Source: Candidatus Omnitrophota bacterium (lineage in GTDB: Bacteria; Omnitrophota; Gorgyraeia; Zapsychrales; Zapsychraceae). From it: 64,000 bases of DNA. Position numbers and translations under genes: made by a program. The stretch covers positions 29,327 to 93,326 of the forward strand of contig JACKFK010000005.1 of NCBI GenBank assembly GCA_020632515.1, read 5' to 3'. The notes under the pieces are model-generated. The model was not told where the DNA came from, ran no database searches, and saw nothing but the letters and a program-made list of their open reading frames with translations. Below, one piece after another: positions 27,990 to 43,730 of this stretch (positions are counted from its first letter, which is position 1; each line of letters opens with the position of its first letter).

Positions 27990-29966
27990 TTATTGTCGAT
28001 GATTTTGTATTTCAGCAAGCAACTCTTCAGATTCAATCACTCCCAAATTAAAAGCTGTTAAAGCATCTTGCGAAGCTTTATCAAAAATTTTCATTTCAAA
28101 ATACGTCTTTGCTCTGTAATAAAAAGCATTGGCGTTATTTGGAAATAAATAAATTGCGTGAGTAAAATCATTTAAAGCGTTTTGAAATATTTTTTTATGC
28201 AGAAAAGCAAGTCCCCTGTTGTTATAGGCCTTAAAGGAGTTAGGGTTTAGAGCGATAGAGATATTTAAATCTTGTATAGCGGAATCATAAGATCCAAGGG
28301 TATTATACACAAGAGCGCGATTATTATAAGTTATTGAATTTTTTGGATTTTGTAAAATATTTGAAGAATAGCTCTCGATAGCTTCGGAAAATTGTTTGGT
28401 CATAACAAAACAATCTCCAATAGCCATATTTATATTTGGAAATTTAGGATTTAAAAATTTTACTGTTTGAAATTTTCTTAAAGCTATTGAGTATTTGTGC
28501 AAGTTAAAAAAAATTCTTCCGAGATTGTAATGGGCTTTTTCATATTTTGGATAAAGGGTAACAGCTGTGTTAAAGTTTTTAAAAGCCGAAGGAAGATCCT
28601 TCATTTTTAGATATACGGTGCCACGATTATTATAAGCTTTATAAAAGGAAGGGTTGAGTTCGATAGATTTGTTTAAATCTTTTAATGCTAAAAGAGGCAG
28701 ATTTCTTTCACTGTAAGCGTATCCACGGTAATTGTAAGCTTCGAAGGTTTGTGGTGCATACTTAAGAACATTTGACCAAAGGGAAATAGTATCTTTCCAA
28801 ACGAACGTTTGATGAAAAGTTTTAATTCCGAGAAAAAGAACGATTAAAGGAAAAAAGATAAGGGTAAGTTTTTTTAAAAATAAGGAGTTTGATTTTATCG
28901 CTTTTTCAAAAAGGTGACTGATTAACAGGCAAAATCCTAAAGAAGGAAGATACATAAAACGATCAGCGACAATATCAAGTTCAGATAAATCAGAGGTTCG
29001 TAAAAGAAAGAAAATGGAAAAAAAATAAAAGGCCCAAGAAAAAAGAAAAAGACGGTATTTTCTAAAGAAAAATAGAAAAAAGGGAAGAGCCATAGAAAGA
29101 AAAAGTGAAAAGAAGTAGGATGGATTAAAGAAGGATACAGGTTTGGGCAATGTGTAGACCAGAGAAAAATTTAGAGGGATAAAGAATTTTTGTATATAGA
29201 AAGAAAAGGACCATATCCAAATAAGAAAAGTTTCTAAAAAAGACGGGGATATTACCAAAATATGCAGATTTCTTGAATAGGTTATCCAAACAATAGGGCC
29301 GATAAACAAAAGAAAAGGAATTTTCTCGAGAAAAGTTTTCTTTGACAATGTTCTGGGTGTAAACCAATCTATTAGAAGGAGAATCAACGGAAGACTTAAG
29401 GCCATGGCTTTTGACAAAATGCTTACGATTGCAAAAAAAAGAGAAAGAAGATAGAACTTTATTTCTTTTTTTTCAAGGTAATTTAAATAACATAAGATAG
29501 AAAGAAGATAGAAAAAGCCATATAACACATCTTTTCGTTCTGTAATCCAGGCGACAGATTCGACGTGAATAGGATGGATGCCGAAAATAAGAGCTGTGAA
29601 AAAAGCGCAAAAAGGAGAAAATCTTAATTTGAGAATTAAAAAAAATATTAAGAGACAACATCCGATATGTAGAAGGATGTTGTTTAAATGAAAAAAGAAA
29701 GGGTTCATTCCAAAAAGAGAATGTTCTAAATTGAAAGAAAAAATAGTTAATGGAATATAAGTAGAAATAACAGTGCTACGGAAGATGTTGACTGTGTTTG
29801 CCCAGGAAAATTCTTGAATATGAGGATTGTTTGCCAAGTGGGCTTCGTCATCCCAATTGAGAAAATCTCCTTTTAGGGTAGGGGCATAAGTAAAGAAAAG
29901 AATAATGCACAGAGAACTGATTAAGAAAGAAAATTTTGGAGATTTGGAAAAAAGAGAAGCACCCAT
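27990..29966 (-). CDS. Polytopic membrane protein with C-terminal TPR repeats (PMT/TMTC-like glycosyltransferase architecture)
   Basis: 658 aa. About 10 or more hydrophobic segments in the N-terminal 400 aa, then 7 or more TPR units (repeated AYNNRG..Y......A..D...AI.L.P). One of only two minus-strand genes right of the origin. Confidence 0.7.
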   Translation of the reverse strand: MGASLFSKSPKFSFLISSLCIILFFTYAPTLKGDFLNWDDEAHLANNPHIQEFSWANTVNIFRSTVISTYIPLTIFSFNLEHSLFGMNPFFFHLNNILLHIGCCLLIFFLILKLRFSPFCAFFTALIFGIHPIHVESVAWITERKDVLYGFFYLLSILCYLNYLEKKEIKFYLLSLFFAIVSILSKAMALSLPLILLLIDWFTPRTLSKKTFLEKIPFLLFIGPIVWITYSRNLHILVISPSFLETFLIWIWSFSFYIQKFFIPLNFSLVYTLPKPVSFFNPSYFFSLFLSMALPFFLFFFRKYRLFLFSWAFYFFSIFFLLRTSDLSELDIVADRFMYLPSLGFCLLISHLFEKAIKSNSLFLKKLTLIFFPLIVLFLGIKTFHQTFVWKDTISLWSNVLKYAPQTFEAYNYRGYAYSERNLPLLALKDLNKSIELNPSFYKAYNNRGTVYLKMKDLPSAFKNFNTAVTLYPKYEKAHYNLGRIFFNLHKYSIALRKFQTVKFLNPKFPNINMAIGDCFVMTKQFSEAIESYSSNILQNPKNSITYNNRALVYNTLGSYDSAIQDLNISIALNPNSFKAYNNRGLAFLHKKIFQNALNDFTHAIYLFPNNANAFYYRAKTYFEMKIFDKASQDALTAFNLGVIESEELLAEIQNHRQ

Positions 29967-30095
29967 ATTTATAGTAATAAGTTTATAATATTATTTATAA
30001 TAATACTATGGAAAAGAAACATTAAACAATAATTAACGCCCAAAAAACTGATTTTGTGTTATAAGTAGGGAAATTAGAGAAAGGAAACAAAGATT

Positions 30096-31739
30096 GTGGA
30101 TTTAGAAATTTTATTGCTTATCGGAAGTTCAATGTTTTTGGGGACACTATTTTCTAAAATATTTAGCCGGTTTAATATCCCTCAGGTTATTAGTTATGTT
30201 TTTATTGGTCTTATAATGGGAAATAGTTTTTTGCAATTATGGAGTGCCGAAAAAATAGAAGCTTTTACACCTTTTGTAAATCTCGCCTTGGGGATTATTG
30301 GATTTATGATAGGGGCCGAATTAAAGATGGAAATTTTTAAGAACAGAGGCCGGAGTATATATAGCATTTTATTTTGTGAAGTTTTTGTTACCTTTGCTGT
30401 GGTGTCATTTTTTATTATTTTAATTACTAAAAAAGTTTATTTAGGAGTGTTATTTGGGGCCCTTGCTTCAGCAACAGCGCCTGCAGCTACGGTAGATGTT
30501 TTATGGGAAAATAAAGCAAGGGGGCCATTAACAACAACGATTTTAGCTATTGTCGCGTTGGACGACGTTCTCGCTTTACTTTTATACGGCTTTGCAAGTG
30601 TTTTTGCGAAAACAATGATTACCCAAGAGCATGTTTCGTTTTTGCACGCATTAGAAATGCCTCTTATAGAAATAGGATCTTCAATTGGGTTAGGTGTTGC
30701 GGGAGCCTATCTTCTTTATTGGGTCATGCAAATTATAAAAGACAGGGAAAGAATACTTCCCTTTTCTTTAGGTATTTTATGTTTAATTGTTGGATTAGCA
30801 ACCCAATGGAAAATTGATTTGATTCTATCGTCTATGATAATGGGATTTATTTTAACTAACTTGTCTCCCAGCGAGAGTAAAGGTGTCTTTGAGGCAATTA
30901 AAAGGTTTAGTACCCCTATTTATGTTTTATTTTTTGTTTTGGTCGGTGCCAGGTTGGATGTTCGTTTAATGTTTGCTTCAGGGATTTCCGTTATTGCCTT
31001 TGTTTATGTTTTGAGTAGAAGTTTTGGAAAAATGTCAGGATCTATTTTGGGAGGTTTTATTGGAGGGGCACATGAATCTGTAACAAAATATTTAGGGCTG
31101 TGTCTTTTTTCGCAAGCAGGTGTTGCGATTGGAATGGCTATATCTATTCATCAAAATTTATCACACATGGGGGCTGAAGCAAGTCAGATTGGTTTGTTGA
31201 TTATTAATGTTATTGTCGGAACAACATTTATTGTTCAGCTAATTGGGCCCATATGCGTCCGTTTTGCCATTTTTAAAGCAAAGGAAGCTGGAAGAGATGT
31301 TAATGAAGATGATGTTATTGATTCATTAAAAGTTTCAGATGTCCTTGATGAAGATATCCCTTTGATAAAAGAAAGTGTTCATTTAGATGAAATGGTCGAT
31401 TTAGTAAAGAAAAGTGAATCAGCCGAATTTTGTGTTCTTAATGAAAAAGGAAGCTTATTAGGGATTATATCCATTGGTGATTTGAGGGAGGTTCTAAGAG
31501 AACAGGAATTAGAGTTAGATACATTAATATTAGCGAAAGATATTGCCGTTCCTCCAAGTCGGGTTATTTTAGGTCAAAAGATGTTAAGATCAGCCATTGA
31601 AATATTTCAACGAACAGGAATTGAATATTTGCCGGTTGTTAAAGATGAGGAAACCAAAGAATTTGTAGGGATGGTTCACTATAAAGTAATTATGGAGAAG
31701 GTTCAAAAAGAAGTTATCACCCGTCGAGGAACATCTTAA
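30096..31739 (+). CDS. Cation:proton antiporter (CPA family) with C-terminal CBS pair
   Basis: About 390 aa of TM helices resembling the Na+/H+ exchanger family, then two CBS-like segments (FCVLNEKGSLLGIISIGDL; LPVVKDEETKEFVGMV). Confidence 0.75.
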   Translation: MDLEILLLIGSSMFLGTLFSKIFSRFNIPQVISYVFIGLIMGNSFLQLWSAEKIEAFTPFVNLALGIIGFMIGAELKMEIFKNRGRSIYSILFCEVFVTFAVVSFFIILITKKVYLGVLFGALASATAPAATVDVLWENKARGPLTTTILAIVALDDVLALLLYGFASVFAKTMITQEHVSFLHALEMPLIEIGSSIGLGVAGAYLLYWVMQIIKDRERILPFSLGILCLIVGLATQWKIDLILSSMIMGFILTNLSPSESKGVFEAIKRFSTPIYVLFFVLVGARLDVRLMFASGISVIAFVYVLSRSFGKMSGSILGGFIGGAHESVTKYLGLCLFSQAGVAIGMAISIHQNLSHMGAEASQIGLLIINVIVGTTFIVQLIGPICVRFAIFKAKEAGRDVNEDDVIDSLKVSDVLDEDIPLIKESVHLDEMVDLVKKSESAEFCVLNEKGSLLGIISIGDLREVLREQELELDTLILAKDIAVPPSRVILGQKMLRSAIEIFQRTGIEYLPVVKDEETKEFVGMVHYKVIMEKVQKEVITRRGTS

Positions 31740-31740
31740 A

Positions 31741-32310
31741 GTGAATATGGAAAATAAATTAAGAAAAACTATTTTTCTTTTTTTTGTTTTGTTGAGTTTT
31801 TCGGGATGTGATGTTATTTACGGGGTTTTAGATAAAAAAGGGGCGGAAGAAAAAGAGCTTGTTGGTGAACTTATTCCGTTTGAAAAAAATCCAACAGTTG
31901 AAGAAATACAGAAATTATTAAAACTTTATGGTTATAACCCCGGAAAAATTGACGGGGTTTTGGGTTTGAAAACACGCAATGCGATTGAAAGATTTCAGAA
32001 GGACTATGATTTAGAGCCTACCAGATTTGTTGATCAATTAACGTGGGAAAAGTTAAAATATTTCAAAGATGTAGGATTAGTTCTTAATGATGAATTAAAC
32101 ATTAATCTTATTCAAACAATTTTGCATTATAATGGCTATCAACCAGGGAAAATAGATGGAAAGTTAGGAGGAAAAACGCAAGAGGCCATTATTTCTTTTC
32201 AAAAAGCTCACGGATTAAAGCCGGACGGTAAAATTGGTTTTAAAACATTGCTACAATTGTCCACATATCTTCAATTGGAAAGCTCCACAACACAAGCTTC
32301 CCCTCCTTAG
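31741..32310 (+). CDS. Lipoprotein with two peptidoglycan-binding (PG_binding_1) repeats
   Basis: Lipobox FSGC. Repeated L...GY.PGKIDG.LG.KT..AI..FQK...L...G. Confidence 0.75.
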   Translation: MNMENKLRKTIFLFFVLLSFSGCDVIYGVLDKKGAEEKELVGELIPFEKNPTVEEIQKLLKLYGYNPGKIDGVLGLKTRNAIERFQKDYDLEPTRFVDQLTWEKLKYFKDVGLVLNDELNINLIQTILHYNGYQPGKIDGKLGGKTQEAIISFQKAHGLKPDGKIGFKTLLQLSTYLQLESSTTQASPP

Positions 32311-32388
32311 GGATAAGCCGGTTGCAATTTCGAGCTATAACCCGTATAATAAAATTCAATTTTAATGTAGTATCACGAAAGAGATAAA

Positions 32389-33153
32389 ATGAATTCTTTT
32401 GAAGCTGTCATCTTTGATCTAGACGGAGTTATTACAAAAACAGCGAAGGTTCACGCTGCTGCATGGAAAGCGATGTTTGACGAATATTTGCAAGAACGGG
32501 CAAAGCAAGGCAAAGAGGCTTTTAGAGAGTTTTCTTATGAGCAAGATTACTTAACATATGTGGACGGTAAACCCCGATATAAAGGTGTCGAAAGTTTTTT
32601 AAAGTCACGTAATATCAGCATTCCTTTTGGAAATCCGACAGATTTATCAAAAAAAGAAACCATCTGTGGTTTGGGGAATCGAAAAAATGAAAAATTTGTG
32701 GAAACTATTGAAAAGGAAGGGGTGGATATATATATCCCCATGGTGAAGTTAATCAAAGAATTAAAGGAAAAAGGAATTCATATTGGTGTAGCTTCTTCGA
32801 GTAAGAATTGCGAATTGGTTTTGCAAACAACAGAATTAGATCAATTTTTTGAAACAAGAGTTGATGGAATTGTTTCAGCTAAATTAGGATTAAAAGGAAA
32901 GCCCGAAGGAGATATCTTTGTTAAAGCCGCAGAAAATATGGGAGTTTCTCCCGATAAGGCTATTGTCATTGAGGACGCTGTTTCGGGTGTTCAGGCTGGA
33001 AAAAACGGAGGCTTTGGATTAGTCATTGGAATGGCGAGGGAAAATAACGAAGAAGATCTTTTAAGAAACGGCGCAGATATTGTTAAGAAAAATTTTGAAG
33101 GAATCACTATTGAAACGTTGGAGCAATGGTTCAAAAAAAAGAACAAACTTTAG
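32389..33153 (+). CDS. pgmB: Beta-phosphoglucomutase family HAD hydrolase
   Basis: HAD motif I VIFDLDGVIT, ASSSKN, GKPEGDIF, EDAVSGVQAG. Length and motif order as in beta-PGM. Confidence 0.8.
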   Translation: MNSFEAVIFDLDGVITKTAKVHAAAWKAMFDEYLQERAKQGKEAFREFSYEQDYLTYVDGKPRYKGVESFLKSRNISIPFGNPTDLSKKETICGLGNRKNEKFVETIEKEGVDIYIPMVKLIKELKEKGIHIGVASSSKNCELVLQTTELDQFFETRVDGIVSAKLGLKGKPEGDIFVKAAENMGVSPDKAIVIEDAVSGVQAGKNGGFGLVIGMARENNEEDLLRNGADIVKKNFEGITIETLEQWFKKKNKL

Positions 33154-33920
33154 ATTTTTTTAAAAACTTAGATGAAATAAAAAAAAGATTATCCTTAAAA
33201 GAGATTTTTGTGTTTCTGGATTATGATGGAACTCTTACCCCGATTGTCGCTACTCCGGATTTAGCGATCCTTTCTAAAGAAATGCACGACAAGATAAAAA
33301 TACTTTCACAGAAAAGAAATGTGGCCATTGTTAGCGGCCGAGCTACGGATGATGTTAAAGATAAGGTAAAAATCGACGGTATTTTTTATGCCGGCAGTCA
33401 TGGATTCGAGATTGTGACTCCGCACGGTGATGTTAAAATTAATCAGCAAGCTAAAAATATTAAAAATGACATCGATAGTGTTTATAAAGAACTTTTAGAA
33501 AAATTAAAAGAAGTCTCTGGCTCATTAGTCGAGCATGTTAAGTATACTATTTCTGTTCATTATCGTCTGGTTGAGGAAAAAGATTTTTCTAAAGTTGAAA
33601 TAGCGGTAAATGACATTATTAAAAGATACCCAAATTTGCGAAAAACAAAAGGAAAAAAGGTTTTTGAAATTAGACCTGATATTGATTGGGACAAGGGGAA
33701 GGCTGTTGAATGGATTTTAGGGGCGCTAAAATTTGATGCGAAAAAACAAATAGCTATTTATATCGGGGATGATACGACGGACGAAGATGCTTTTAAAGTT
33801 CTAAAAGATAAAGGTTTTGGAATATTAGTCTCCGAAAATGCGAGAGAAACAAAAGCCGAATATCGAATTAACGATACAGAAGAGGTTAAAAAAGCGTTAG
33901 ATTTTTTAATAGAAAATTGA
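33126..33920 (+). CDS. otsB: Trehalose-6-phosphate phosphatase family protein
   Basis: FLDYDGTLTPIV, SGR, and GDDTTDEDAF, the motifs of the T6PP HAD subfamily. Overlaps pgmB by 28 nt. Confidence 0.8.
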   Translation: MVQKKEQTLDFFKNLDEIKKRLSLKEIFVFLDYDGTLTPIVATPDLAILSKEMHDKIKILSQKRNVAIVSGRATDDVKDKVKIDGIFYAGSHGFEIVTPHGDVKINQQAKNIKNDIDSVYKELLEKLKEVSGSLVEHVKYTISVHYRLVEEKDFSKVEIAVNDIIKRYPNLRKTKGKKVFEIRPDIDWDKGKAVEWILGALKFDAKKQIAIYIGDDTTDEDAFKVLKDKGFGILVSENARETKAEYRINDTEEVKKALDFLIEN

Positions 33921-33927
33921 GTAAATA

Positions 33928-36363
33928 ATGAAAAAATGGAAACTTACTTACAATAAATTTATTCCCGAAGAGGAGAGCTTGAGAGAATCCTTGTGCACGT
34001 TAGGAAATGGTTATTTTGGAACTCGAGGAGCAATTCCCGAATCTTCAGCGAATAAAGTCCACTATCCCGGAACGTATATCGCAGGTGTTTATAATACTTT
34101 AACTACGGAAATTGCCAATCGGTTAATTGCCAATGAAGATTTTGTAAATTGTCCTAATTGGTTGATGTTAACTTATCGTATTGACAACGGTCCGTGGATT
34201 AATAGGCAAAAAGTTAAGATCCTTTCTTGGAAAGTCGAACTTAATATGCGTAAAGGTATTCTTTCTCGAAGAATCCGTTGGCAAGATGATAAAGGAAGAA
34301 GAACTTTGGTAGAGAGTCATTGCCTGGTTAGTATGGCTCATCCGCATTGCGGGGGATTGCGGATAACTATTACACCGGAAAACTATAGCGGAACTATTAC
34401 GGTTCGCAGCGGGATCGACGGGTTAATTATTAATGCAGGTGTTGACCGGTATAAGCAGCTAAGATCCAAGCATTTGGAGCCTTATTTATTAGGAGCGTTT
34501 GGTGAGCAAGGAATATTTTTACAAATGCAGACAAATCAGTCTAATATTCAAATCACGGAAGCGTTACGTAATTTGTTTTATTTAAATAATGAAGCCATTC
34601 ATCCAGAATTGAAGATTATTTCTCATGGAAAACAACGGATTATGCACGAAACTCAAGTTAATGTCAAAAAGGGGGAAAAGTTTTCGATTGAGAAATTAGT
34701 TAGCCTTTACACATCGAGGGATCATGGCGTGGCAGATAATTGTGCCATTGCCCAAGATACGGTAAATAAAATCGAAAATTTCGAAATATTATTTAAAGCT
34801 CATCAAGCCCGATGGAAAGCTTTATGGAAGAGATATGATGTTGAAGTCGAGGGGGATTCTTTTGTTCAATTAGCTTTACGTTTGCATATATTTCATTTGC
34901 TTCAGTCGGCATCTACGTATAACGATGATATTGACGCTGGAATGCCAGTTAGAGGGCTTCATGGCGAGGCTTACCGAGGGCATATTTTTTGGGACGAATT
35001 ATATGTCTTTCCTTTTTATAATTTACATTCGCCCGAGATAACGCGAGCTTTGTTAATGTATCGCTATCGACGGCTAGGTGCCGCTAAAGAAAATGCGAAG
35101 CAACAAGGATTTAAAGGTGCGATGTATCCATGGCAGACAGCCTCAACGGGAGAAGAAGTTACACAAATAATCCATCTTAACCCTTTGTCCGGCGTTTGGG
35201 GGCCGGATTATAGTTCTTTGCAGAGGCATGTTTCAATAGCCATTGCGTATAATGTTTGGAATTATCATTACACGACGGGAGATCGAGATTTTTTAGATCG
35301 TTGCGGGGCAGAAATGATTTTAGAAATTGCTCATTTTTGGTCAAGCTCGGCGACGTTTAATAAAAAAAGTGGGAAATTTGAAATTGAAGGTGTTATGGGG
35401 CCGGATGAATTTCATGAAAAATATCCTGGGGCGAATAAAGGTGGTTTGAAAAATAACGCCTACACAAATATCATGGTGGTATGGATCTTAGAAAAAGCTT
35501 TATATATCATTGATAAAATATTAACAGAAGAAGAACGGAATGCTCTTTTATTGAAGGTCGAGGTTTCACAGGAAGAGGTTGCTCGCTGGCGAGAAATGAT
35601 TTTGAAAATGGCCATTCCAATGGACAAGCAAGGGTTGATTCATCAGTTTGAAGGATATATGGATTTAGAAGAGTTGGACTGGGAGGAGTATCGAAATAAA
35701 TATGATAATATTCATCGAATCGATCGTATTTTAAAAGCGGAAGGGTTATCCCCGGACAGTTATAAGGTATCTAAACAAGCCGATGTGTTGATGTTGTTTT
35801 ATGTTCTTAATATACACGAATTAAAAGATATTTTTAAACGATTGGGGTATCCTTTTTCTAAGGAAATCATGCGAAAGAATTTTCGTTATTATTTCGATAG
35901 AACGTCACACGGATCAACTTTAAGTATGGTTGTACATGCTTACGTGGCGGATTTATTGGATATAAAAGAAAATTCATATGAATATTTTATTGAATCATTG
36001 AAAAGCGACATTTATGATTCTCAAGGAGGAACAACTCAAGAAGGAATTCATGCAGGCGTAATGGGGGGGACGATTGATTTATTTTTGCGCAATTACGGGG
36101 GGTTGAATATATTAGAAGATCGTATCTGCCTGGATCCTAAATTGCCGAAGCATTGGAAAAAAATAAAATTTAGTGTCCGTTATAAAAATATTTGGTTTTA
36201 TGTTGTAGTTTTTAAAGATGCTGTAACGATTACAGCGGAACCATTAAAAGAAATATCTCTTCTTCCAACAACAAAAATTCCTATTGAGGTTAGAAAAGAG
36301 ACCTATCAGCTTCTTCCAGGAAAACCGCACACAATTTCTACTAGAGATTTGTTCCAGAAGTAA
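33928..36363 (+). CDS. Glycoside hydrolase family 65 phosphorylase (trehalose/trehalose-6-P/kojibiose phosphorylase type)
   Basis: 811 aa. N-terminal LGNGYFGTRG and a central catalytic-domain region YRGHIFWDELYVFPFY, both typical of GH65. Substrate cannot be assigned from sequence alone. Confidence 0.85.
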   Translation: MKKWKLTYNKFIPEEESLRESLCTLGNGYFGTRGAIPESSANKVHYPGTYIAGVYNTLTTEIANRLIANEDFVNCPNWLMLTYRIDNGPWINRQKVKILSWKVELNMRKGILSRRIRWQDDKGRRTLVESHCLVSMAHPHCGGLRITITPENYSGTITVRSGIDGLIINAGVDRYKQLRSKHLEPYLLGAFGEQGIFLQMQTNQSNIQITEALRNLFYLNNEAIHPELKIISHGKQRIMHETQVNVKKGEKFSIEKLVSLYTSRDHGVADNCAIAQDTVNKIENFEILFKAHQARWKALWKRYDVEVEGDSFVQLALRLHIFHLLQSASTYNDDIDAGMPVRGLHGEAYRGHIFWDELYVFPFYNLHSPEITRALLMYRYRRLGAAKENAKQQGFKGAMYPWQTASTGEEVTQIIHLNPLSGVWGPDYSSLQRHVSIAIAYNVWNYHYTTGDRDFLDRCGAEMILEIAHFWSSSATFNKKSGKFEIEGVMGPDEFHEKYPGANKGGLKNNAYTNIMVVWILEKALYIIDKILTEEERNALLLKVEVSQEEVARWREMILKMAIPMDKQGLIHQFEGYMDLEELDWEEYRNKYDNIHRIDRILKAEGLSPDSYKVSKQADVLMLFYVLNIHELKDIFKRLGYPFSKEIMRKNFRYYFDRTSHGSTLSMVVHAYVADLLDIKENSYEYFIESLKSDIYDSQGGTTQEGIHAGVMGGTIDLFLRNYGGLNILEDRICLDPKLPKHWKKIKFSVRYKNIWFYVVVFKDAVTITAEPLKEISLLPTTKIPIEVRKETYQLLPGKPHTISTRDLFQK

Positions 36364-36467
36364 CTTTATTTTTGTATTAAAAAAAAAGAATTTATCTCGA
36401 AAGTGAAAAGCAGGTGTGTTATGATTTTAAAATTACTTAACTATTTTAAAATGGAATATTTGCATAA

Positions 36468-37598
36468 ATGAAAATACACGAATATCAAGCTTGTGAAATG
36501 TTTAAAAAGGCAGGGATGCCTGTGCCTAAAGGTCGGGTAGCTACTGAAGTTTATGAAGCTGTTTTAATTGCCGAAGAGATTGGATTTCCTGTTGTTTTGA
36601 AGTCGCAAGTGCTTGTCGGCGGCCGCGGTAAAGCCGGAGGAATTAAAGTTGTAAAAAATAAAGCAGAGTTGGAAAAAGTTTTTGGAGAACTGAGAAAGCT
36701 TGTTATTAAAGGGTATCCTGTTGAGAAAATATTTGTCGTTGGCGCGTTAGATATTAAGAAAGAATATTATTTGGCTGTGACGATAGACGGAGCGAATAAC
36801 GATGTTGTTTTGATTGCCAGCGCGGAAGGCGGCGTAGAAATAGAGGAAGTAGCAAAGACTAATCCAAGCGCGATTAAAAAATATTATTTAAAGGGTAGTC
36901 GACAATTAGACCAATCCAGATGGGCAGGTTTTATTAATGAAGTTTTTCCTTCGGAAGATTTAAGAGAAGAAGGAACAAAGATTTTTGAAAAATTGCTAGA
37001 AGTGTTTTTTCAAAATGATTGTTCTTTAGCGGAAATCAATCCATTTGTTGTTGACGGACAGGAAAAAGTTTATGCGGCAGATGCTAAGATTAATTTAGAT
37101 GATAATGCTTTGTTTAGACACGAGGAATTCGAAAAATTAAGGGATTTAAAGTATGAAGATCCAGATGAATTGGAAGCCAAAGAAAAAAATTTAAGTTTTG
37201 TAAAATTAGAAGGGAACGTTGGTTGTATCGTTAATGGAGCTGGCCTAGCAATGGCAACGATGGATATTGTTAACCTTTGCGGCGGTAAGCCGGCAAACTT
37301 TCTTGATGTTGGAGGCAGCTCAAATCCAGAGAAAGTTTTAAATGCTTTAAAAATCATTTTACGGAATAAAGATGTAAAAGCGATATTGATTAATATTTTT
37401 GGCGGCATTACACGGTGTGATGATATTGCTAACGGAATTATAAAAGCTAAAGAACAAATTGAATTGCCGGTTCCTTTGGTTGTTCGTCTGACGGGAACAA
37501 ACGAAAAAGAAGCTAAAGAAATCTTGGCGAAAAAAGGGATTACAACATTTTCAACAATGCGCGACGCTGTTAATAAAGTTGTTGAATTAGCGAAATAA
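36468..37598 (+). CDS. sucC: Succinyl-CoA synthetase beta subunit
   Basis: MKIHEYQA..., an ATP-grasp domain, then a ligase-CoA domain (GCIVNGAGLAMATMD). Confidence 0.93.
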   Translation: MKIHEYQACEMFKKAGMPVPKGRVATEVYEAVLIAEEIGFPVVLKSQVLVGGRGKAGGIKVVKNKAELEKVFGELRKLVIKGYPVEKIFVVGALDIKKEYYLAVTIDGANNDVVLIASAEGGVEIEEVAKTNPSAIKKYYLKGSRQLDQSRWAGFINEVFPSEDLREEGTKIFEKLLEVFFQNDCSLAEINPFVVDGQEKVYAADAKINLDDNALFRHEEFEKLRDLKYEDPDELEAKEKNLSFVKLEGNVGCIVNGAGLAMATMDIVNLCGGKPANFLDVGGSSNPEKVLNALKIILRNKDVKAILINIFGGITRCDDIANGIIKAKEQIELPVPLVVRLTGTNEKEAKEILAKKGITTFSTMRDAVNKVVELAK

Positions 37599-37617
37599 AA
37601 GAAAGTTATAGTAATTT

Positions 37618-38484
37618 ATGAGTATTATTCTTAATGAAAATTCAAAAGTCATTGTTCAAGGCATAACCGGCCGGGACGGATCTTTTCATACTAAACAGAT
37701 GGTAGAGTATGGGACCAAGGTTGTTGGAGGCGTTACACCGGGAAAAGGCGGACAAGAAGTTCATGGTGTTCCTGTTTATAATTCTGTCGCAGAGGCAAAA
37801 AAGCAAACACAGGCGAATGTCGCAGTTATTTATGTGCCTGCCAAATTTGCTAAAGCCGCAATTTTAGAAGATATTGACGCAGGAATAGAACTGATCATTT
37901 GCATTACTGAAGGTGTGCCGGTTATTGATATGGTTGATGTCCAATCGGTGATGAAAGGAAAGAACATTCGAATTGTTGGGCCAAATTGTCCAGGGGTCAT
38001 TTCCCCCGGGAAATGCAAGGTCGGAATCATGCCAGGACATATTCATAAGCCAGGACCTATTGGCGTTGTTTCCCGCAGTGGTACACTTACCTATGAAGTT
38101 GTTTATAATCTTACCTTAAATAATATCGGCCAGTCTAGTTGTGTTGGATTAGGCGGCGATCCTATCATTGGAACGCGGTTTATAGACGTTTTGGAAATGT
38201 TTATGAAAGATGATGAAACTAAAGGGATAGTGATGGTTGGAGAAATTGGCGGAGAAGATGAACAGCGTGCAGCGGAATATATTAAAAAAGAAGTTACTAA
38301 ACCTATTGTGGGATTTATTGCTGGAAGAACTGCTCCACCAGGAAAACGAATGGGGCATGCCGGGGCTATCATTTCATCCGGAGATAGCACGGCAGAGGCC
38401 AAACGAGAGATTCTTAAATCTTCCGGCGTGCAGGTTGTTGATATTCCAGATGAAATACCAGCGATTTTTAAAAATAAATTGTAA
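37618..38484 (+). CDS. sucD: Succinyl-CoA synthetase alpha subunit
   Basis: [13 protein letters not shown] and the phosphohistidine loop RMGHAGAI. Confidence 0.94.
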
Positions 38485-38531
38485 ACGACGTTCGTCCTAT
38501 TTCCCTACATAACATAATTTTTAAAAATAAA

Positions 38532-39641
38532 ATGAAAAAGAAAAAAGAATTAAAAAATATTTTTTTGTCGTCTATTCATCAAGATGCTGGAAAAACGACA
38601 ATGTCTTTAGGTTTGTTTAAAGCTTTAAAGGATCGACGGTTGAGAACGTCGTTTATGAAACCAATAGGACAACAGTTTGTTAATGTTAACAATCTCACAA
38701 TAGATAAAGATTCATATTTAATAGGACAGGTTTTTCAAAAAGGGAAAACAATAAAAGAAATGAGTCCTATAACAATTGGACGAGGATATACAGAAAAATA
38801 TATATTTAATCCGCATAAAGATAAATTAAGCGCGACTATAGTTAAATCTTTTAAAAGCCTAACAAAAAGTAAAGACGCTATAATCGTTGAAGGCACAGGG
38901 CATGCCGGGGTCGGCGCCGTCATAGATTATTCGAATGCTGATGTCGCTGCTTTGTTGGGATCCAAAACGATTATTATTAGCGGTGGGGGGATAGGCCGAA
39001 GCATTGATGAAATTGTTTTAAATAAGGCTCTATTTGATCTAAAAGGTGTAGAAATTATCGGGGTTATTGTAAATAAAGTTTTGCCGGAAAAATACGATAA
39101 GATCAAAAGAGTTATTGGCCAAGGATTAAAAAATAAAGGAATTTCATTGTTAGGTGTTATACCTGTTCAGCCTTTGTTAAGCGCTCCGACAATTGAACAA
39201 GTTAAACAACGATTGAATTTGCAAATTTTGTGTGGAGAGAATAGCACGAATAGGCGTATTAAACATACAATTGTCGCCGCAATGGAACCTCATAATATGA
39301 TTCATTATCTTAAAGATGGCACATTGGTTTTAACGTCGGGAGACCGTGTCGATAATATTTTAGTTGCAGTAAGCTCTCATTTAGTTCGTGACGGCAGGAG
39401 TTTTCAAGTTTCCGGAATCATTTTAACAGGGGGATTGATGCCGAATCCAAAAATAGTGGAATTACTTAAAAGCAGTCAGATTCCTGTCCTTATTACGGAA
39501 GAAGATACCTATACTGTTGCCGCTAAAGTTGAACATTTGATTTGTAAAATTCAAAAAACAGATAAGGATAAAATTCAAGAGGCGACGAGATTAGTAGAAA
39601 AACATGTTGATGTTGATAAAATTTTAAAAGCATTCGATTAG
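38532..39641 (+). CDS. Stand-alone Pta-N-like protein (BioD/CobQ-like P-loop domain plus DRTGG domain)
   Basis: 369 aa. N-terminal DAGKTT P-loop and VEGTGHAGVG, with a C-terminal DRTGG-like motif (LVLTSGDR). Resembles the N-terminal regulatory half of long phosphotransacetylases but has no PTA_PTB catalytic domain. Confidence 0.6.
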   Translation: MKKKKELKNIFLSSIHQDAGKTTMSLGLFKALKDRRLRTSFMKPIGQQFVNVNNLTIDKDSYLIGQVFQKGKTIKEMSPITIGRGYTEKYIFNPHKDKLSATIVKSFKSLTKSKDAIIVEGTGHAGVGAVIDYSNADVAALLGSKTIIISGGGIGRSIDEIVLNKALFDLKGVEIIGVIVNKVLPEKYDKIKRVIGQGLKNKGISLLGVIPVQPLLSAPTIEQVKQRLNLQILCGENSTNRRIKHTIVAAMEPHNMIHYLKDGTLVLTSGDRVDNILVAVSSHLVRDGRSFQVSGIILTGGLMPNPKIVELLKSSQIPVLITEEDTYTVAAKVEHLICKIQKTDKDKIQEATRLVEKHVDVDKILKAFD

Positions 39642-39757: not shown

Positions 39758-39790
39758 AACTGACTTATTGATTGAAGTCAGTTCTTTTTT
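39758..39790 (+). terminator. Terminator-like hairpin 7 nt upstream of the nqrA start
   Basis: AACTGACTT - ATTGATTG - AAGTCAGTT followed by CTTTTTT. No SD lies between it and ATG 39798. Confidence 0.45.
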
Positions 39791-39797
39791 AAATATT

Positions 39798-41147
39798 ATG
39801 GCAACATATAATTTAAGAAAAGGTAGAGATATTAATTTAAAGGGCAAAGCGGCAAAGGAGTTTGTCAAGTTGCCCTTACCGAAACAGATTGCCATTCAAC
39901 CAACCGACTTTCGCGGTCTAAAACCCCGGTTGCTAGTCAAGATTGGCGATGTTGTTAAGGTCGGTACCCCACTGATCGTCGACAAAAAACACCCAGAAAT
40001 TAAATTTGTTTCTTCAGCCAGCGGAAAGGTTTGTGCGATTAATCGCGGAGAAAAAAGGCTTTTATTGGAAGTTGTTATTGAAACGGATGGGAAGCAGGAT
40101 GCTGAAAAATTTGAAACAGTTGGTGAGCAAAAATTAAAAACGTTGACGAAGAAAAAAGTCACGGAATTGATGCTCAACAGCGGTTTGTGGCCAATCATTC
40201 GCCAACGACCATTCTCAAAAGTGGCTAATCCGGAAGATAATCCGAAGTCTATTTTTGTTCGTGCTCTTAATACAGATCCTTTAGGCCCAGATGTTGATTT
40301 TATTTTGCAAGGCAAAGAAAAGGATTTTCAGTTAGGCGTAGAAGCGTTGACTCATTTAACAGAAGGAAAAGTTTTTGTTTGTACGAAAAAAGATACACAG
40401 ATAAAGTTTTCTGCTACAACAAAGAATATAGAAACCCACCAATTTTCCGGCCCTCATCCAACAGGGAATGTTAGTACACATATCCATTTATTGGATCCAA
40501 TAAATAAAGGGGATATTGTTTGGTATGTGGAAGCCCAAGATGTTGTTCGGTTAGGACGATTCTTTACAAATGGCGAGTATCCAGCGGAACGTGTAGTTGC
40601 GATCACAGGAGATATAGTAAAAAATCGTGTTTATGCGCAAACAATAATAGGGACCCCGGTATCAGCTTTATTACAAGGAACAGCCTTACAAAATACACGA
40701 TGTATTTCTGGAAGTATTTTATCCGGCAAGAATGTTGGGAAAAATGGATTTCTAGGGTTTTATGACGCCCAAGTTACTGTTATTCCCGAAGGTGGTCGAA
40801 GAGAGTTTTTAGGATGGTTGGTTCCCGGCTTTGGTAAATATACTTTTTCGCACACGTATGCATCGGCTTTTTTACCAGAGAAAGAAGTTTCCTTAGATAC
40901 AGATGAAAATGGCGGACATCGAGCGATTGTTCTAAATCATCTCTATGATGAATACGTGAGTTTAGATATTGTTACTTATTTTTTATTAAAAGCTATTATA
41001 GCAGGTGATATTGAGGAAGCGGAAAAACTAGGAATATTGGAATGTGATGAAGAGGATTTTTCCTTATGTACGTTTGCTTGTCCTTCTAAAGTTGATGTTG
41101 GAGCAATCATTCGAAAAGGATTAGATTTAATTGAAAAGGAAAGTTAA
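39798..41147 (+). CDS. nqrA: Na+-translocating NADH:quinone oxidoreductase subunit A
   Basis: MATYNLRKGRDINLKG parallels the NqrA N-terminus. About 449 aa and first gene of the nqrA-F order. The ORF is open from TTG 39768. Confidence 0.9.
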   Translation: MATYNLRKGRDINLKGKAAKEFVKLPLPKQIAIQPTDFRGLKPRLLVKIGDVVKVGTPLIVDKKHPEIKFVSSASGKVCAINRGEKRLLLEVVIETDGKQDAEKFETVGEQKLKTLTKKKVTELMLNSGLWPIIRQRPFSKVANPEDNPKSIFVRALNTDPLGPDVDFILQGKEKDFQLGVEALTHLTEGKVFVCTKKDTQIKFSATTKNIETHQFSGPHPTGNVSTHIHLLDPINKGDIVWYVEAQDVVRLGRFFTNGEYPAERVVAITGDIVKNRVYAQTIIGTPVSALLQGTALQNTRCISGSILSGKNVGKNGFLGFYDAQVTVIPEGGRREFLGWLVPGFGKYTFSHTYASAFLPEKEVSLDTDENGGHRAIVLNHLYDEYVSLDIVTYFLLKAIIAGDIEEAEKLGILECDEEDFSLCTFACPSKVDVGAIIRKGLDLIEKES

Positions 41148-41150
41148 TTT

Positions 41151-42332
41151 ATGTCATTTTTAAAAGAAAAATCAAAGGAAATTGAAGAAAAGTTTTTTTC
41201 TAAAGGAAAGCCTTTAGAAAAACTTTATCCACTCTTTGATGCTTTAGATACTTTTTTACTAACACCAGGAAAAATTACAAGAAAAGCGCCTCATGTTCGT
41301 GATTCGGTTGATATTAAGCGTGTTATGATTTTTGTTGTTGTTGCGTTGCTGCCATGCATTATGCTGGGGATTTATAATGTTGGTTTTCAAATTTTAAAAG
41401 CTCAGGGAAGTGTAGGCTCTCTACCTGAAATAATGTTAAAAGGATCCGTCAAGGTTCTCCCTATTATTATAGTAACCTACATGGTGGGAGGCTTATGGGA
41501 GGGGATTTTTGCCATCATCCGCAAGCATGAAATCAATGAAGGGTTTTTAGTAACAGGAATTCTCTTCGCGCTAACACTTCCTCCATCAATACCTTTATGG
41601 CAGGTTGCTGTGGGGATTTCATTTGGAGTTGTCTTTGGGAAAGAAATTTTTGGTGGAACGGGATATAATTTTTTGAATCCTGCTTTAACAGCTCGCGCGT
41701 TCATATTTTTTGCGTATCCGGCACAAATGTCGGGAGATGCTGTTTGGGCTGCTGTTGATGGTTTTTCTCAAGCCACCCCCTTAGCTGTTGTTGCCGCTTC
41801 TCCTAAAGGCGCAAGCGCTGTGGCGGCCTTAGCTGATGCAGGGTATTCTTTAAAGCAAGTGTTTCTTGGTTTTATTCCAGGTTCCATAGGGGAAACTTCT
41901 ACAGCCGCATGTTTAGCAGGGTTGATCTTTTTACTTATAACGCGCGTAGCCAGCTGGAGAATTATTGCCGGCTGTGTTGTTGGGATGTTTTCAATGAGTT
42001 CTTTGTTTCTGTTATTTAAAGGTCCGGAATCATTAGCCTTTTTTTCATTACCACCTTACTGGCATATGGTGATGGGAGGCTTTGCTTTTGGAGCGATATT
42101 CATGGCAACGGATCCGGTTTCTTCCAGTGCCACAAATGTGGGTAGATGGATTTATGGATTTTTGATCGGAGGGTTGGTGGTTTTAATTCGCATGGTTAAT
42201 CCTGCTTATCCAGAAGGCGTGATGTTGGCCATTTTGTTTATGAATATTTTTGCGCCGACGATTGATCATTTTGTTGTTCAGGCCAACGTTAATAAACGAT
42301 TAAAAAGAGTGAAAGCTGTAAAAGAAAGTTAA
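41151..42332 (+). CDS. nqrB: Na+-NQR subunit B
   Basis: 393 aa polytopic protein of the NqrB/RnfD family, with an FMN-attachment-like FSQATPL. Confidence 0.92.
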   Translation: MSFLKEKSKEIEEKFFSKGKPLEKLYPLFDALDTFLLTPGKITRKAPHVRDSVDIKRVMIFVVVALLPCIMLGIYNVGFQILKAQGSVGSLPEIMLKGSVKVLPIIIVTYMVGGLWEGIFAIIRKHEINEGFLVTGILFALTLPPSIPLWQVAVGISFGVVFGKEIFGGTGYNFLNPALTARAFIFFAYPAQMSGDAVWAAVDGFSQATPLAVVAASPKGASAVAALADAGYSLKQVFLGFIPGSIGETSTAACLAGLIFLLITRVASWRIIAGCVVGMFSMSSLFLLFKGPESLAFFSLPPYWHMVMGGFAFGAIFMATDPVSSSATNVGRWIYGFLIGGLVVLIRMVNPAYPEGVMLAILFMNIFAPTIDHFVVQANVNKRLKRVKAVKES

Positions 42333-42356
42333 ACAAACTTTTTAAGGAATTATTCC

Positions 42357-43082: not shown

Positions 43083-43094
43083 AGGAGATGGAAT

Positions 43095-43730
43095 ATGGCA
43101 ACAACAATCCTATCCAAAAAAGAGCGTAAACAAATAAAAGATGCTTTGTGGGATAATAATCCTGTTACATTTCAAATTTTAGGAATTTGTTCCGCATTAG
43201 CGGTAACAGTTCAATTAAAAACAGCTTTAGTAATGGCTATTTCATTAACATTTGTCGTCTCGATGTCGAATGTTGTGATTTCGATATTACGAAATAAGAT
43301 ACCCTCTAAGATACGAATTATTGTGCAGTTGTCGGTTATTTCATCGTTAGTTATATTGGCGGATCAGTTTTTAAAAGCGTATATGTATGATGTAAGTAAG
43401 CAATTAAGTGTTTTCGTTGGGTTAATTATTACTAATTGTATTGTTATGGGCCGTGCAGAGGCTTATGCTATGGCCAATCCTCCGTGGAAATCATTTATTG
43501 ATGGTCTCGGAAATGGTTTGGGCTATAGTTCAGTATTAATTTTAGTTGCGACAGCCAGAGAAATTTTAGGTTCTGGAACATTATTAGGCTTTCCAGTGGT
43601 TCCGCAATTTCTTTATGATATTGGATATGTCAATTGTGGAATGATGGTTCTGGCGCCAGGAGCTTTTTTTCTTTTAGGAATAATTATTTGGGTGCAGAGA
43701 GCGATAAGCGGATACACCGAATCGAATTAG
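43095..43730 (+). CDS. nqrD: Na+-NQR subunit D
   Basis: 211 aa, NqrD/RnfE family (NP...[12 protein letters not shown]). Confidence 0.92.

What the first reader, a model, noticed from the sequence alone, without database searches (positions are those of the whole stretch)
32389..36363. pgmB-otsB-GH65 cluster: possible nucleotide-sugar-independent route to trehalose via beta-glucose-1-phosphate
Seen: three tightly packed genes. The first two overlap by 28 nt and the third starts 8 nt after the second. They encode a beta-phosphoglucomutase-type HAD, a trehalose-6-phosphate phosphatase-type HAD (FLDYDGTLTPIV, GDDTTDEDAF) and an 811-aa GH65 phosphorylase.

Established knowledge:
- GH65 includes trehalose-6-phosphate phosphorylase (Tre6P + Pi <-> beta-G1P + G6P) and trehalose phosphorylase.
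- Beta-PGM interconverts beta-G1P and G6P.
- In Lactococcus the phosphorylase-pgmB pair is catabolic.

Inference:
- An OtsB-type phosphatase translationally coupled into the same unit makes little sense for catabolism.
- It would pull the reverse reaction: G6P -> beta-G1P; beta-G1P + G6P -> Tre6P; Tre6P -> trehalose.
- That would make the compatible solute without OtsA or UDP/ADP-glucose.
- Alternatively, the phosphatase and GH65 may act on another glucoside phosphate, of the kojibiose, nigerose or glucosylglycerol type.

I cannot tell from sequence whether this has been described.
Basis: partly seen in the sequence, partly recalled or inferred. Interest (0 to 1): 0.55.

Follow-up and report, generated by a model that had tools for sequence, protein, structure and literature searches.

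The report
Three-gene trehalose-6-phosphate module (split OtsB1)

Summary
In detail: three co-oriented genes at 32389-36363, with a 28-nt overlap and a 7-nt gap.

**Enzyme assignments**
- The GH65 protein belongs to the trehalose-6-phosphate phosphorylase (TrePP) clade. It is 48% identical to the biochemically characterised Caldithrix abyssi enzyme. It has the same specificity motif (DQAQDE vs DQGQDE), the same loop pattern and intact phosphate-site residues.
- The phosphatase keeps every catalytic and cap motif of the validated M. tuberculosis OtsB2.
- The mutase is 47% identical to the validated beta-PGM Rv3400.

**Functional coupling**
- In 84 related loci from more than 12 phyla the genes are adjacent or fused: pgmB-otsB 25, pgmB-GH65 32, triple fusion 4.
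- The triple fusion is the mycobacterial OtsB1 (Rv2006) architecture, whose function is unknown.
- Phosphatase-bearing modules never carry the kinase or transporter genes that accompany the phosphatase-less version (0/37 vs 22/32).

**Reading and limits**
- Best reading (about 0.6): G6P -> beta-G1P; beta-G1P + G6P -> Tre6P; Tre6P -> trehalose.
- The in vivo direction and the absence of otsA from this genome are not shown.
- Reviews treat TrePP only as degradative.
- Verdict: a new wiring of known enzymes, widespread and testable.

The parts
32322..32350 (+). Promoter-like site (TTGCAA-17 nt-TATAAT) in the 78-nt gap upstream of pgmB
   Evidence: It matches 10 of 12 positions and is the best + strand match in 29900-38600. 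The total number of matches in that region is not above the shuffle expectation, so this is weak evidence.
32389..33153 (+). pgmB: beta-phosphoglucomutase of the Rv3400 type (HAD-IA with an enlarged cap)
   Evidence: TIGR02009 scores 172 bits against a cut-off of 153. It is 47% identical over 230 aa to PDB 8h5s, whose numbering fits Rv3400 (DxD with D29). Rv3400 is shown to be a beta-PGM in vitro and in vivo. D10/D12, the SSSKN motif, the K of GKP and the ED motif align with L. lactis beta-PGM catalytic residues.
33126..33920 (+). otsB: trehalose-6-phosphate phosphatase (HAD-IIB). It overlaps pgmB by 28 nt, which suggests translational coupling.
   Evidence: TIGR00685 scores 167 bits against a cut-off of 68. 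It is 39% identical to M. tuberculosis OtsB2 (PDB 5gvx). HAD motifs I-IV (DYDGT, SGR, WDKG, GDDTTDED) and the cap motifs AGSHGFE, VEHxxxxxxxHYR and EIRP are identical or near-identical to OtsB2.
33928..36363 (+). GH65 trehalose-6-phosphate phosphorylase (TrePP, EC 2.4.1.216 clade)
   Evidence: It is 48% identical over 783 aa to Caldithrix abyssi APF18594.1 (CaGP), which was shown to make Tre6P from beta-G1P and G6P. The specificity motif is DQAQDE against DQGQDE. Loop 3 is long, loop 7 long and loop 11 short. The catalytic acid is E494. The phosphate site is R342, Y349, S663/T664 and H708. The best PDB hit is 9lb6 (E 1.6e-156), deposited under a Tre6P name.

Best explanation
The three genes form one operon-like module that makes trehalose from glucose-6-phosphate alone.

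**Proposed steps.**
1. PgmB converts G6P to beta-glucose-1-phosphate.
2. The GH65 enzyme, a trehalose-6-phosphate phosphorylase working in its thermodynamically favoured reverse direction, condenses beta-G1P with a second G6P. This gives trehalose-6-phosphate plus Pi.
3. OtsB hydrolyses Tre6P irreversibly to trehalose and so pulls the two reversible steps.

The net reaction is 2 G6P -> trehalose + 2 Pi, with no UDP- or ADP-glucose and no OtsA.

**What sets the direction.** The reversible TrePP/beta-PGM core appears to be steered by its accessory enzyme. A Tre6P phosphatase, as here, gives the anabolic version. A small kinase plus transporters gives the catabolic version.

**Shown and inferred.** Family membership of each enzyme and their evolutionary coupling are shown. 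The direction in vivo, the physiological trigger and independence from OtsA are inferred.
For: **(1) Enzyme identities.**
- The GH65 protein is 48% identical to the characterised TrePP CaGP (APF18594.1).
- My column mapping reproduces the published motifs for CaGP (DQGQDE) and for the kojibiose phosphorylase CsKP (EEAPxx). It gives DQAQDE for the window.
- Loop lengths fit the T6PP class and not the trehalose phosphorylase class.
- The phosphorylase residues are intact.
- OtsB keeps all OtsB2 motifs.
- PgmB is of the Rv3400 type.

**(2) Coupling.**
- Of 84 related loci from many phyla, 37 carry the OtsB-type phosphatase between or fused to pgmB and GH65: 25 pgmB-otsB fusions, 4 triple fusions and 7 unfused.
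- In an independent sample taken from the OtsB side, 59 of the 150 best cluster representatives carry a beta-PGM domain.

**(3) Non-orthologous replacement.** Four pgmB-GH65 fusion loci, plus two loci cut at the upstream contig end, instead have a different Tre6P phosphatase family (PF21141/PF18572) directly upstream.

**(4) Contrast in context.**

| Gene near the module | Triads | pgmB-GH65 fusions | Fisher p |
|---|---|---|---|
| PRK-like kinase | 0/37 | 22/32 | 1e-10 |
| MFS transporter | 0/37 | 10/32 | 2e-4 |

- Among 123 immediate neighbours of triads, no Pfam family recurs more than 3 times, and no transporter or sugar regulator is among the 25 commonest families.
- In the window the flanks are housekeeping genes.

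**(5) Logic.** TrePP acts on Tre6P, not on trehalose. The only linear pathway that uses all three activities is therefore the synthetic one.

**(6) Feasibility.** The Tre6P-forming direction runs to 93% yield in vitro.
Against: - No expression, metabolite or enzyme data exist for this organism.
- OtsA could not be excluded from the genome. Only the 64-kb window plus about 10 kb to its left were inspected; the look-up from the right end returned only a 3-kb contig.
- OtsA lies within 6 kb of 3 of 37 related triads (L051, L056, L059) and of 5 pgmB-GH65 loci. The module therefore coexists with the canonical pathway in some genomes, where the phosphatase could simply serve OtsA.
- The beta-PGM equilibrium lies far towards G6P (established knowledge), so beta-G1P would be scarce.
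- An M. tuberculosis otsB1 deletion has no obvious phenotype.
- From memory, not checked here: an M. smegmatis mutant lacking OtsA, TreS and TreYZ needs trehalose.
- The window motif differs from DQGQDE at one position (A for G), and the window protein is only 37% identical to the solved 9lb6 structure.
Confidence: 0.6

Rival explanations
1. Tre6P disposal or catabolic module. Tre6P made by an OtsA encoded elsewhere, or imported, is the input. TrePP plus beta-PGM return it to G6P, and the phosphatase is a parallel overflow valve against toxic Tre6P accumulation.
For: - The characterised physiological role of TrePP/PgmB in Lactococcus is catabolic (reference titles; the review).
- OtsA is adjacent in 8 of 84 loci.
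- Rv3400 is needed for growth on trehalose.
- OtsB1 is induced in starved or hypoxic M. tuberculosis.
Against: - Two enzymes would compete for one substrate while being fused or translationally coupled, which is wasteful.
- There is no PTS, transporter or kinase near any of the 37 triads. The version of the module that does look catabolic lacks the module's OtsB-type phosphatase and has a kinase instead.
- Trehalose, once dephosphorylated, cannot re-enter the pathway without a kinase.
Confidence: 0.2
2. Bidirectional Tre6P/trehalose homeostat. The reversible TrePP/beta-PGM pair buffers Tre6P against the G6P pool in either direction, while OtsB sets the trehalose output. It would work alongside OtsA rather than replacing it.
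For: - TrePP and beta-PGM are freely reversible.
- The module coexists with OtsA or the OtsA-OtsB fusion (TPSP) in some loci, for example L056, where everything lies on one strand.
- Mycobacteria have OtsA, OtsB2 and OtsB1 together.
Against: - It does not explain the strict absence of the kinase from triads, nor the self-contained spread of the triad into unrelated contexts.
- It overlaps with the best explanation whenever net flux is towards trehalose.
Confidence: 0.12
3. The GH65 enzyme and the phosphatase act on another glucoside phosphate, of the kojibiose, nigerose or glucosylglycerol-phosphate type.
For: - GH65 specificities are diverse, and some subgroups are uncharacterised.
- There is one substitution in the six-position motif, and only 37-48% identity to characterised or solved TrePP-clade members.
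Against: - The motif, the loop pattern, and the WQ and QRH signatures are shared with CaGP and 9lb6. They differ from the KP (WE...T), TP (WR...A, short loops), MP and GGP signatures.
- The phosphatase cap motifs are those of bona fide Tre6P phosphatases.
- A second, unrelated Tre6P phosphatase family replaces OtsB in some loci.
Confidence: 0.05

Closest known systems
Lactococcus lactis trePP-pgmB trehalose utilisation pathway (Andersson et al. 2001)
   Same: The same two core enzymes, a GH65 Tre6P phosphorylase and a beta-phosphoglucomutase, encoded together, with the same chemistry (Tre6P + Pi <-> beta-G1P + G6P; beta-G1P <-> G6P).
   Different: - In Lactococcus, Tre6P comes from PTS uptake and the pathway is catabolic (established knowledge).
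- Here there is no transporter or regulator, and a Tre6P phosphatase is inserted between the two genes.
- The window's mutase is much closer to Rv3400 (E 2e-60) than to the lactococcal enzyme (about 1e-25).
Caldithrix abyssi CaGP (APF18594.1, Cabys_1845), a characterised TrePP
   Same: It lies in the same GH65 clade, at 48% identity. It has the same specificity motif class and the same Rv3400-type beta-PGM partner.
   Different: - CaGP is a single 1049-aa pgmB-GH65 fusion without a phosphatase.
- Its neighbours are a sodium:solute symporter, TonB-dependent receptors and a PRK-like kinase, which looks catabolic.
Mycobacterial OtsB1 (Rv2006): 1327 aa, DosR/KstR-regulated, function unknown
   Same: - The same three domains occur in the same order, HAD (beta-PGM type), Trehalose_PPase and GH65.
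- Identity to the three window proteins is 34-46%, 36-42% and 43-45%.
- The HAD and Tre6P phosphatase motifs are intact.
   Different: - It is one polypeptide rather than three genes.
- Its GH65 domain has S instead of D at the first motif position, and ARAHH instead of LQRH.
- Mycobacteria also possess OtsA/OtsB2, TreS and TreYZ.
OtsA/OtsB (TPS/TPP) trehalose pathway
   Same: Tre6P is the intermediate, and an OtsB-family phosphatase carries out the committed last step.
   Different: Tre6P would be formed by a phosphorylase from beta-G1P, not by a GT20 synthase from UDP- or ADP-glucose. No nucleotide sugar is needed.
Engineered in vitro Tre6P cascades using TrePP (Taguchi 2020; Bioresour Bioprocess 2026)
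   Same: They use TrePP in the synthetic direction, optionally with beta-PGM supplying G6P or beta-G1P.
   Different: They are described as new-to-nature, start from maltose, and stop at Tre6P. The module described here would be a natural equivalent, completed by a phosphatase.

Membership tests
GH65 trehalose-6-phosphate phosphorylase (EC 2.4.1.216; De Beul subgroup 22) | GH65 N-terminal, catalytic (alpha/alpha)6 and C-terminal domains | tested here: met
   PF03636, PF03632 and PF03633 at 9e-69, 2e-128 and 3e-10.
GH65 trehalose-6-phosphate phosphorylase (EC 2.4.1.216; De Beul subgroup 22) | Phosphorylase rather than hydrolase: a catalytic acid Glu plus the phosphate site (CsKP K330, Y337, S631/S632, H675), and no catalytic-base Glu | tested here: met
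   E494 lies in GPDEFHE. The phosphate site is R342, Y349, S663/T664 and H708. PDB 9lb6 has the same R and S-T variants.
GH65 trehalose-6-phosphate phosphorylase (EC 2.4.1.216; De Beul subgroup 22) | Six correlated specificity positions (CsKP 64, 392, 394, 402, 416, 585) read DQGQDE | tested here: met
   The window reads DQAQDE, 5 of 6 with a conservative G to A change. Of the 90 sequences in that alignment, 55 read DQGQDE and 16 DQAQDE. The mapping was validated by recovering DQGQDE for CaGP and EEAP.. for CsKP.
GH65 trehalose-6-phosphate phosphorylase (EC 2.4.1.216; De Beul subgroup 22) | Loop pattern: loop 3 long, loop 7 long, loop 11 short (trehalose phosphorylases have all three short) | tested here: met
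   Alignment with CsKP, CaGP and 9lb6, read against Table 3 of the review.
GH65 trehalose-6-phosphate phosphorylase (EC 2.4.1.216; De Beul subgroup 22) | Catalyses beta-G1P + G6P <-> Tre6P + Pi | not testable with these tools
   Inferred from 48% identity to CaGP, for which this activity was measured.
Trehalose-6-phosphate phosphatase (OtsB, HAD-IIB, TIGR00685/PF02358) | Scores above the curated family cut-off | tested here: met
   TIGR00685 scores 167 bits against a cut-off of 68. PF02358 scores 181.5 bits against 27.
Trehalose-6-phosphate phosphatase (OtsB, HAD-IIB, TIGR00685/PF02358) | HAD motifs I-IV, and cap motifs shared with a validated Tre6P phosphatase | tested here: met
   FLDYDGTL, VSGR, YAGSHGFE, VEHxxxxxxxHYR, EIRPxxDWDKG and GDDTTDEDAF compared with M. 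tuberculosis OtsB2.
Trehalose-6-phosphate phosphatase (OtsB, HAD-IIB, TIGR00685/PF02358) | Hydrolyses Tre6P | not testable with these tools
   Requires an enzyme assay.
beta-Phosphoglucomutase | Passes the NCBIfam beta-PGM equivalog model TIGR01990 | tested here: not met
   126 bits against a cut-off of 189. The broader TIGR02009 family model is passed (172 against 153). The shortfall coincides with a cap insertion of about 30 aa.
beta-Phosphoglucomutase | Catalytic DxD, the distal phosphate site (SxSKN), Lys, the ED pair, and close similarity to a validated beta-PGM | tested here: met
   Residues align with L. lactis beta-PGM. It is 47% identical to PDB 8h5s/Rv3400 and shares the same cap insertion. 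Rv3400 is validated as a beta-PGM.
Mycobacterial OtsB1 (Rv2006)-type module | beta-PGM-type HAD, then Tre6P phosphatase, then GH65, in that order | tested here: met
   The gene order matches. All three parts are homologous to Mycolicibacterium/Mycobacterium 1301-1340-aa proteins.
Mycobacterial OtsB1 (Rv2006)-type module | A single fused polypeptide | tested here: not met
   There are three separate ORFs in two reading frames. The overlap is conserved in relatives, so the split is not an assembly artefact.
Lactococcus-type catabolic trePP-pgmB locus | Linked to a sugar uptake system (PTS) and a sugar regulator | tested here: not met
   There is none in the inspected parts of the window. The flanks are a Na+/H+ exchanger, a PG-binding protein, sucCD and Na+-NQR. 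Among 123 neighbours of 37 related triads, none ranks among the 25 commonest Pfam families.

The most novel reading that the evidence does not exclude
The pgmB-otsB-GH65 module, including mycobacterial OtsB1, is a self-contained route from glucose-6-phosphate to trehalose. That would make it a sixth natural route of trehalose biosynthesis, needing no nucleotide sugar. The same reversible TrePP/beta-PGM core is switched between synthesis and breakdown by swapping a Tre6P phosphatase for a small kinase of the uridine-kinase/PRK family, a candidate trehalose kinase.
Probability: 0.5. Interest if true: 0.8.

Novelty: new variant of a known kind. Interest (0 to 1): 0.66.

Why it matters
**A possible new route.** Trehalose is a major stress protectant, and in mycobacteria an essential metabolite and drug-target pathway. 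Current reviews list five biosynthetic routes and treat TrePP only as a way to degrade Tre6P. A 2026 paper calls TrePP-based Tre6P synthesis new-to-nature.

**What follows if the module works as proposed.**
- There is a cheaper route: 2 ATP equivalents per trehalose against about 3 for OtsAB, and no NTP-activated sugar. It is spread over many phyla, including autotroph lineages and energy-limited uncultured ones.
- It gives a concrete, testable function to M. tuberculosis OtsB1 (Rv2006), a dormancy- and starvation-induced protein that has never been characterised.
- It corrects a systematic annotation gap. These proteins are variously named trehalose-phosphatase, alpha,alpha-trehalase, HAD hydrolase or 'Not trehalose-6-phosphate phosphatase'.

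Tried and rejected
- **Assembly or frameshift artefact.** I asked whether an error at the A8 run (33133-33140) had split a fused pgmB-otsB gene. Rejected: L003, L004 and L006 have the same out-of-frame overlap, and L006 lacks the A run.
- **Trehalose phosphorylase (TreP), giving Tre6P -> trehalose -> beta-G1P + glucose.** Rejected on the motif (WQ rather than WR; DQAQDE rather than TRIGPP), on the long loops 3 and 7, and on the clade containing CaGP.
- **Kojibiose, nigerose, maltose or glucosylglycerol specificity.** Rejected on the same grounds.
- **Different active sites in different architectures.** The signature is essentially constant across the NJ tree, so one specificity is assumed for all.
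- **otsA/treS/treYZ/treT in the genome.** None was found among the window ORFs scanned against Pfam, nor in about 10 kb beyond its left end. The look-up from the right end returned only a 3-kb contig. ORFs in 1-26400 were identified only by reading their translations.
- **Prior description of the pathway.** Ten literature searches found none. The library lacks most subscription journals, so absence is not proof. Andersson 2001 could not be opened.
- **DnaA-box clustering near dnaA.** Not convincing.
- **Structure prediction and fold search.** Not run. The tools return no coordinates, so they could not test binding of the 6-phosphate.

Full report
**1. Observation**

The window holds three co-oriented ORFs at 32389-33153 (254 aa), 33126-33920 (264 aa) and 33928-36363 (811 aa).
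- The first two overlap by 28 nt. The third starts after a 7-nt gap.
- The otsB ATG lies inside the codons for a conserved (E/Q)-W pair near the end of pgmB. Relatives L003, L004 and L006 have the same out-of-frame overlap. The split is therefore genuine and suggests translational coupling. It is not a homopolymer error at the A8 run, which is not conserved.
- A sigma-70-like site (TTGCAA-17-TATAAT, 32322-32350) lies in the 78-nt gap upstream. This is weak evidence.
- The organism is an uncultured Candidatus Omnitrophota bacterium. The GH65 protein is identical to MCA9407793.1/MCB9747126.1, on a 240,910-bp contig.

**2. The three enzymes**

*GH65.* It has all three GH65 domains.
- Its best solved relative is PDB 9lb6 (E 1.6e-156, 37% identity), deposited under a trehalose-6-phosphate name. 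Kojibiose phosphorylase follows at 1e-114.
- The catalytic acid (E494) and the phosphate-site residues (R342, Y349, S663/T664, H708) are present, so it is a phosphorylase rather than a hydrolase.
- De Beul et al. 2021 defined six correlated specificity positions. They showed experimentally that Caldithrix abyssi CaGP (APF18594.1, motif DQGQDE) makes Tre6P from beta-G1P and G6P.
- That exact protein is P0270, a 1049-aa pgmB-GH65 fusion. It is 48% identical to the window GH65 over 783 aa.
- My alignment recovers DQGQDE for CaGP and 9lb6, and EEAP.. for CsKP. It gives DQAQDE for the window. Of the 90 sequences aligned, 55 read DQGQDE and 16 DQAQDE.
- Loops 3 and 7 are long and loop 11 is short. 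This is the T6PP pattern; trehalose phosphorylases have three short loops.

*OtsB.* It passes TIGR00685 (167 bits against 68). It shares every HAD motif and cap motif with the validated M. tuberculosis OtsB2, at 39% identity.

*PgmB.* It passes the beta-PGM family model TIGR02009 but not the narrow equivalog TIGR01990, because of a cap insertion.
- It shares that insertion with PDB 8h5s, to which it is 47% identical. The numbering of 8h5s fits Rv3400.
- Rv3400 is a beta-PGM in vitro, and its deletion raises beta-G1P 30-fold in M. tuberculosis.

**3. Are the three functionally coupled?**

A scan of one genome per GTDB species with a GH65 alignment found at least 598 relatives. The best 80 loci, plus 4 from metagenome contigs, come from many groups: Omnitrophota, Planctomycetota, Nitrospirota, Atribacterota, Actinomycetota, Binatia, Gemmatimonadota, Desulfobacterota, Bacteroidota, Chlorobiota, Chloroflexota, and Alpha- and Gammaproteobacteria.

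| Architecture | Loci |
|---|---|
| pgmB-GH65 fused | 32 |
| pgmB-otsB fused, with separate GH65 | 25 |
| All three genes separate | 7 (the window is an eighth) |
| Triple fusion | 4 |
| pgmB + GH65, unfused | 6 |
| GH65 alone | 5 |
| otsB + GH65, pgmB not scored | 1 |
| Cut by a contig end | 4 |

- The triple fusion's best matches are Mycolicibacterium/Mycobacterium proteins of 1301-1340 aa annotated 'trehalose-phosphatase', with HAD + PF02358 + GH65 domains. This fits the size and Tre6P-phosphatase homology reported for M. tuberculosis OtsB1/Rv2006 (1327 aa); that Rv2006 itself carries the GH65 domain is from memory, since its sequence was not retrieved.
- OtsB1 is in the DosR regulon, is seen only in carbon-starved cells, and has never been characterised biochemically.
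- Sampling from the OtsB side gives the same picture. Among the 150 best 50%-identity cluster representatives in 1.84 billion proteins, 59 carry a beta-PGM domain in the same chain.
- In four pgmB-GH65 fusion loci, plus two loci cut at the upstream end, OtsB is replaced by a different Tre6P phosphatase family (PF21141/PF18572) directly upstream.

The coupling of beta-PGM, TrePP and a Tre6P phosphatase is therefore ancient, widespread and repeatedly reinforced.

**4. Direction**

The active-site signature is essentially constant across architectures, so the accessory genes are the informative feature.

| Gene within 6 kb | pgmB-GH65 fusions | Triads (37) | Fisher p |
|---|---|---|---|
| PRK/uridine-kinase-like kinase (about 212 aa) | 22/32 | 0 | 1e-10 |
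| MFS transporter | 10/32 | 0 | 2e-4 |
| GH13 | 9/32 | 1 | 0.004 |

- In C. abyssi, the fusion is flanked by a sodium:solute symporter, TonB-dependent receptors and the kinase. That looks like uptake, then phosphorylation to Tre6P, then phosphorolysis.
- These statistics ignore phylogenetic non-independence.
- Of 123 immediate neighbours of triads, no Pfam family recurs more than 3 times. No transporter or sugar regulator is among the 25 commonest families.
- In the window the flanks are a CBS-Na+/H+ exchanger, a PG-binding protein, sucCD, a DRTGG protein, Na+-NQR and nitrogen-assimilation genes.
- TrePP acts on Tre6P, not on trehalose. The only linear pathway that uses all three activities is G6P -> beta-G1P; beta-G1P + G6P -> Tre6P; Tre6P -> trehalose.
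- The Tre6P-forming direction is favourable in vitro, with 93% yield.

I therefore favour the anabolic reading, at about 0.6.

**5. Caveats**

- OtsA (GT20) lies within 6 kb in 8 of 84 loci, including 3 triads. In L056 an OtsA-OtsB fusion follows the triad on the same strand. The module can therefore coexist with the canonical route.
- I could not test whether this Omnitrophota genome lacks otsA. Only the window and about 10 kb beyond its left end were visible.
- The otsB1 deletion in M. tuberculosis has no obvious phenotype.
- From memory, an M. smegmatis triple-pathway mutant is a trehalose auxotroph. That would argue against a strongly active fourth route there under laboratory conditions.
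- Mycobacterial OtsB1 GH65 domains also diverge at two signature sites: S for D, and ARAHH for LQRH.

**6. Comparison with what is known**

- The chemistry is that of the Lactococcus TrePP/PgmB pathway, and of engineered Tre6P cascades that their authors call new-to-nature.
- The architecture is that of OtsB1.
- Recent reviews list TrePP only as a Tre6P degradation pathway.
- The GH65 review does not mention the phosphatase association or the fusions.
- Ten full-text searches found no description of a TrePP-plus-phosphatase biosynthetic route. The library omits most subscription journals.
- I class this as a new variant of a known kind: known enzyme families in a previously undescribed, widely distributed wiring.

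**7. Verdict**

Enzyme identities and coupling are well supported. The direction and independence from OtsA remain inferences.
- Interest is 0.66.

Noticed in passing
L085:12165-12803 (Caldithrix abyssi), and directly downstream of pgmB-GH65 in 22 loci, e.g. L024:8571-9206: A small P-loop kinase of about 212 aa from the uridine-kinase/PRK family follows the pgmB-GH65 fusion, sometimes in two tandem copies. All its curated-model hits are far below cut-off. It is never found with the phosphatase-bearing triad. It is a candidate trehalose kinase for a PTS-independent catabolic route.
   Followed up: partly
L016, L017:3994-5211, L023, L029, L035, L055: A different Tre6P phosphatase family (PF21141 T6PP_C + PF18572 T6PP_N) sits immediately upstream of pgmB-GH65 fusions in place of OtsB. 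In L017 a divergent OtsA (GT20) lies next to it.
   Followed up: partly
L030, L037:2866-5106(-), L039, L053, L056: In Bacteroidales loci a bifunctional OtsA-OtsB (GT20 + Trehalose_PPase, about 740 aa) lies next to the pgmB-GH65 fusion, divergently transcribed. In L056 it follows a full triad on the same strand, and the L056 GH65 has QYH instead of QRH.
   Followed up: partly
window 1-5000: This is the replication origin region. dnaN (1768-2856, -) and dnaA (3006-4346, -) are followed by yidC, parA and parB. GC skew changes sign at about 3-4 kb, and 45 of the 50 ORFs of at least 90 aa are on the + strand. gyrB and gyrA lie beyond the left end (L087). DnaA boxes are not clearly clustered.
   Followed up: partly
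window 31741-32310 and L001:5676-6236: A small protein with two PG_binding_1 domains lies directly upstream of the triad both in the window and in a 67%-identical relative, although the remaining flanks differ.
   Followed up: no
window 33133-33140: An A8 run lies inside the 28-nt pgmB/otsB overlap. A one-base slip there would fuse the two ORFs into the pgmB-otsB protein that is common elsewhere. The run is not conserved in L006, so programmed slippage is unlikely.
   Followed up: yes
mycobacterial OtsB1-type proteins (P0365, P0135) and L077: Their GH65 domains carry S instead of D at the first specificity position, and ARAHH instead of the otherwise invariant LQRH. Their acceptor site may therefore have drifted from the rest of the family.
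   Followed up: no
window 39768-45685; 45997-60288: A complete Na+-translocating NADH:quinone reductase operon (nqrA-F) is followed by a nitrogen block: a GAF-ANTAR regulator, amtB, P-II, a type III glutamine synthetase, a glutamine amidotransferase, NAD synthase and the large and small GOGAT subunits.
   Followed up: no
L002 and L069 (GH65 alone): In the 56-57% identical relatives the GH65 gene lacks an adjacent pgmB or otsB. It follows a GH13 alpha-amylase-family gene, a GH57 gene and an M48 peptidase gene.
   Followed up: no
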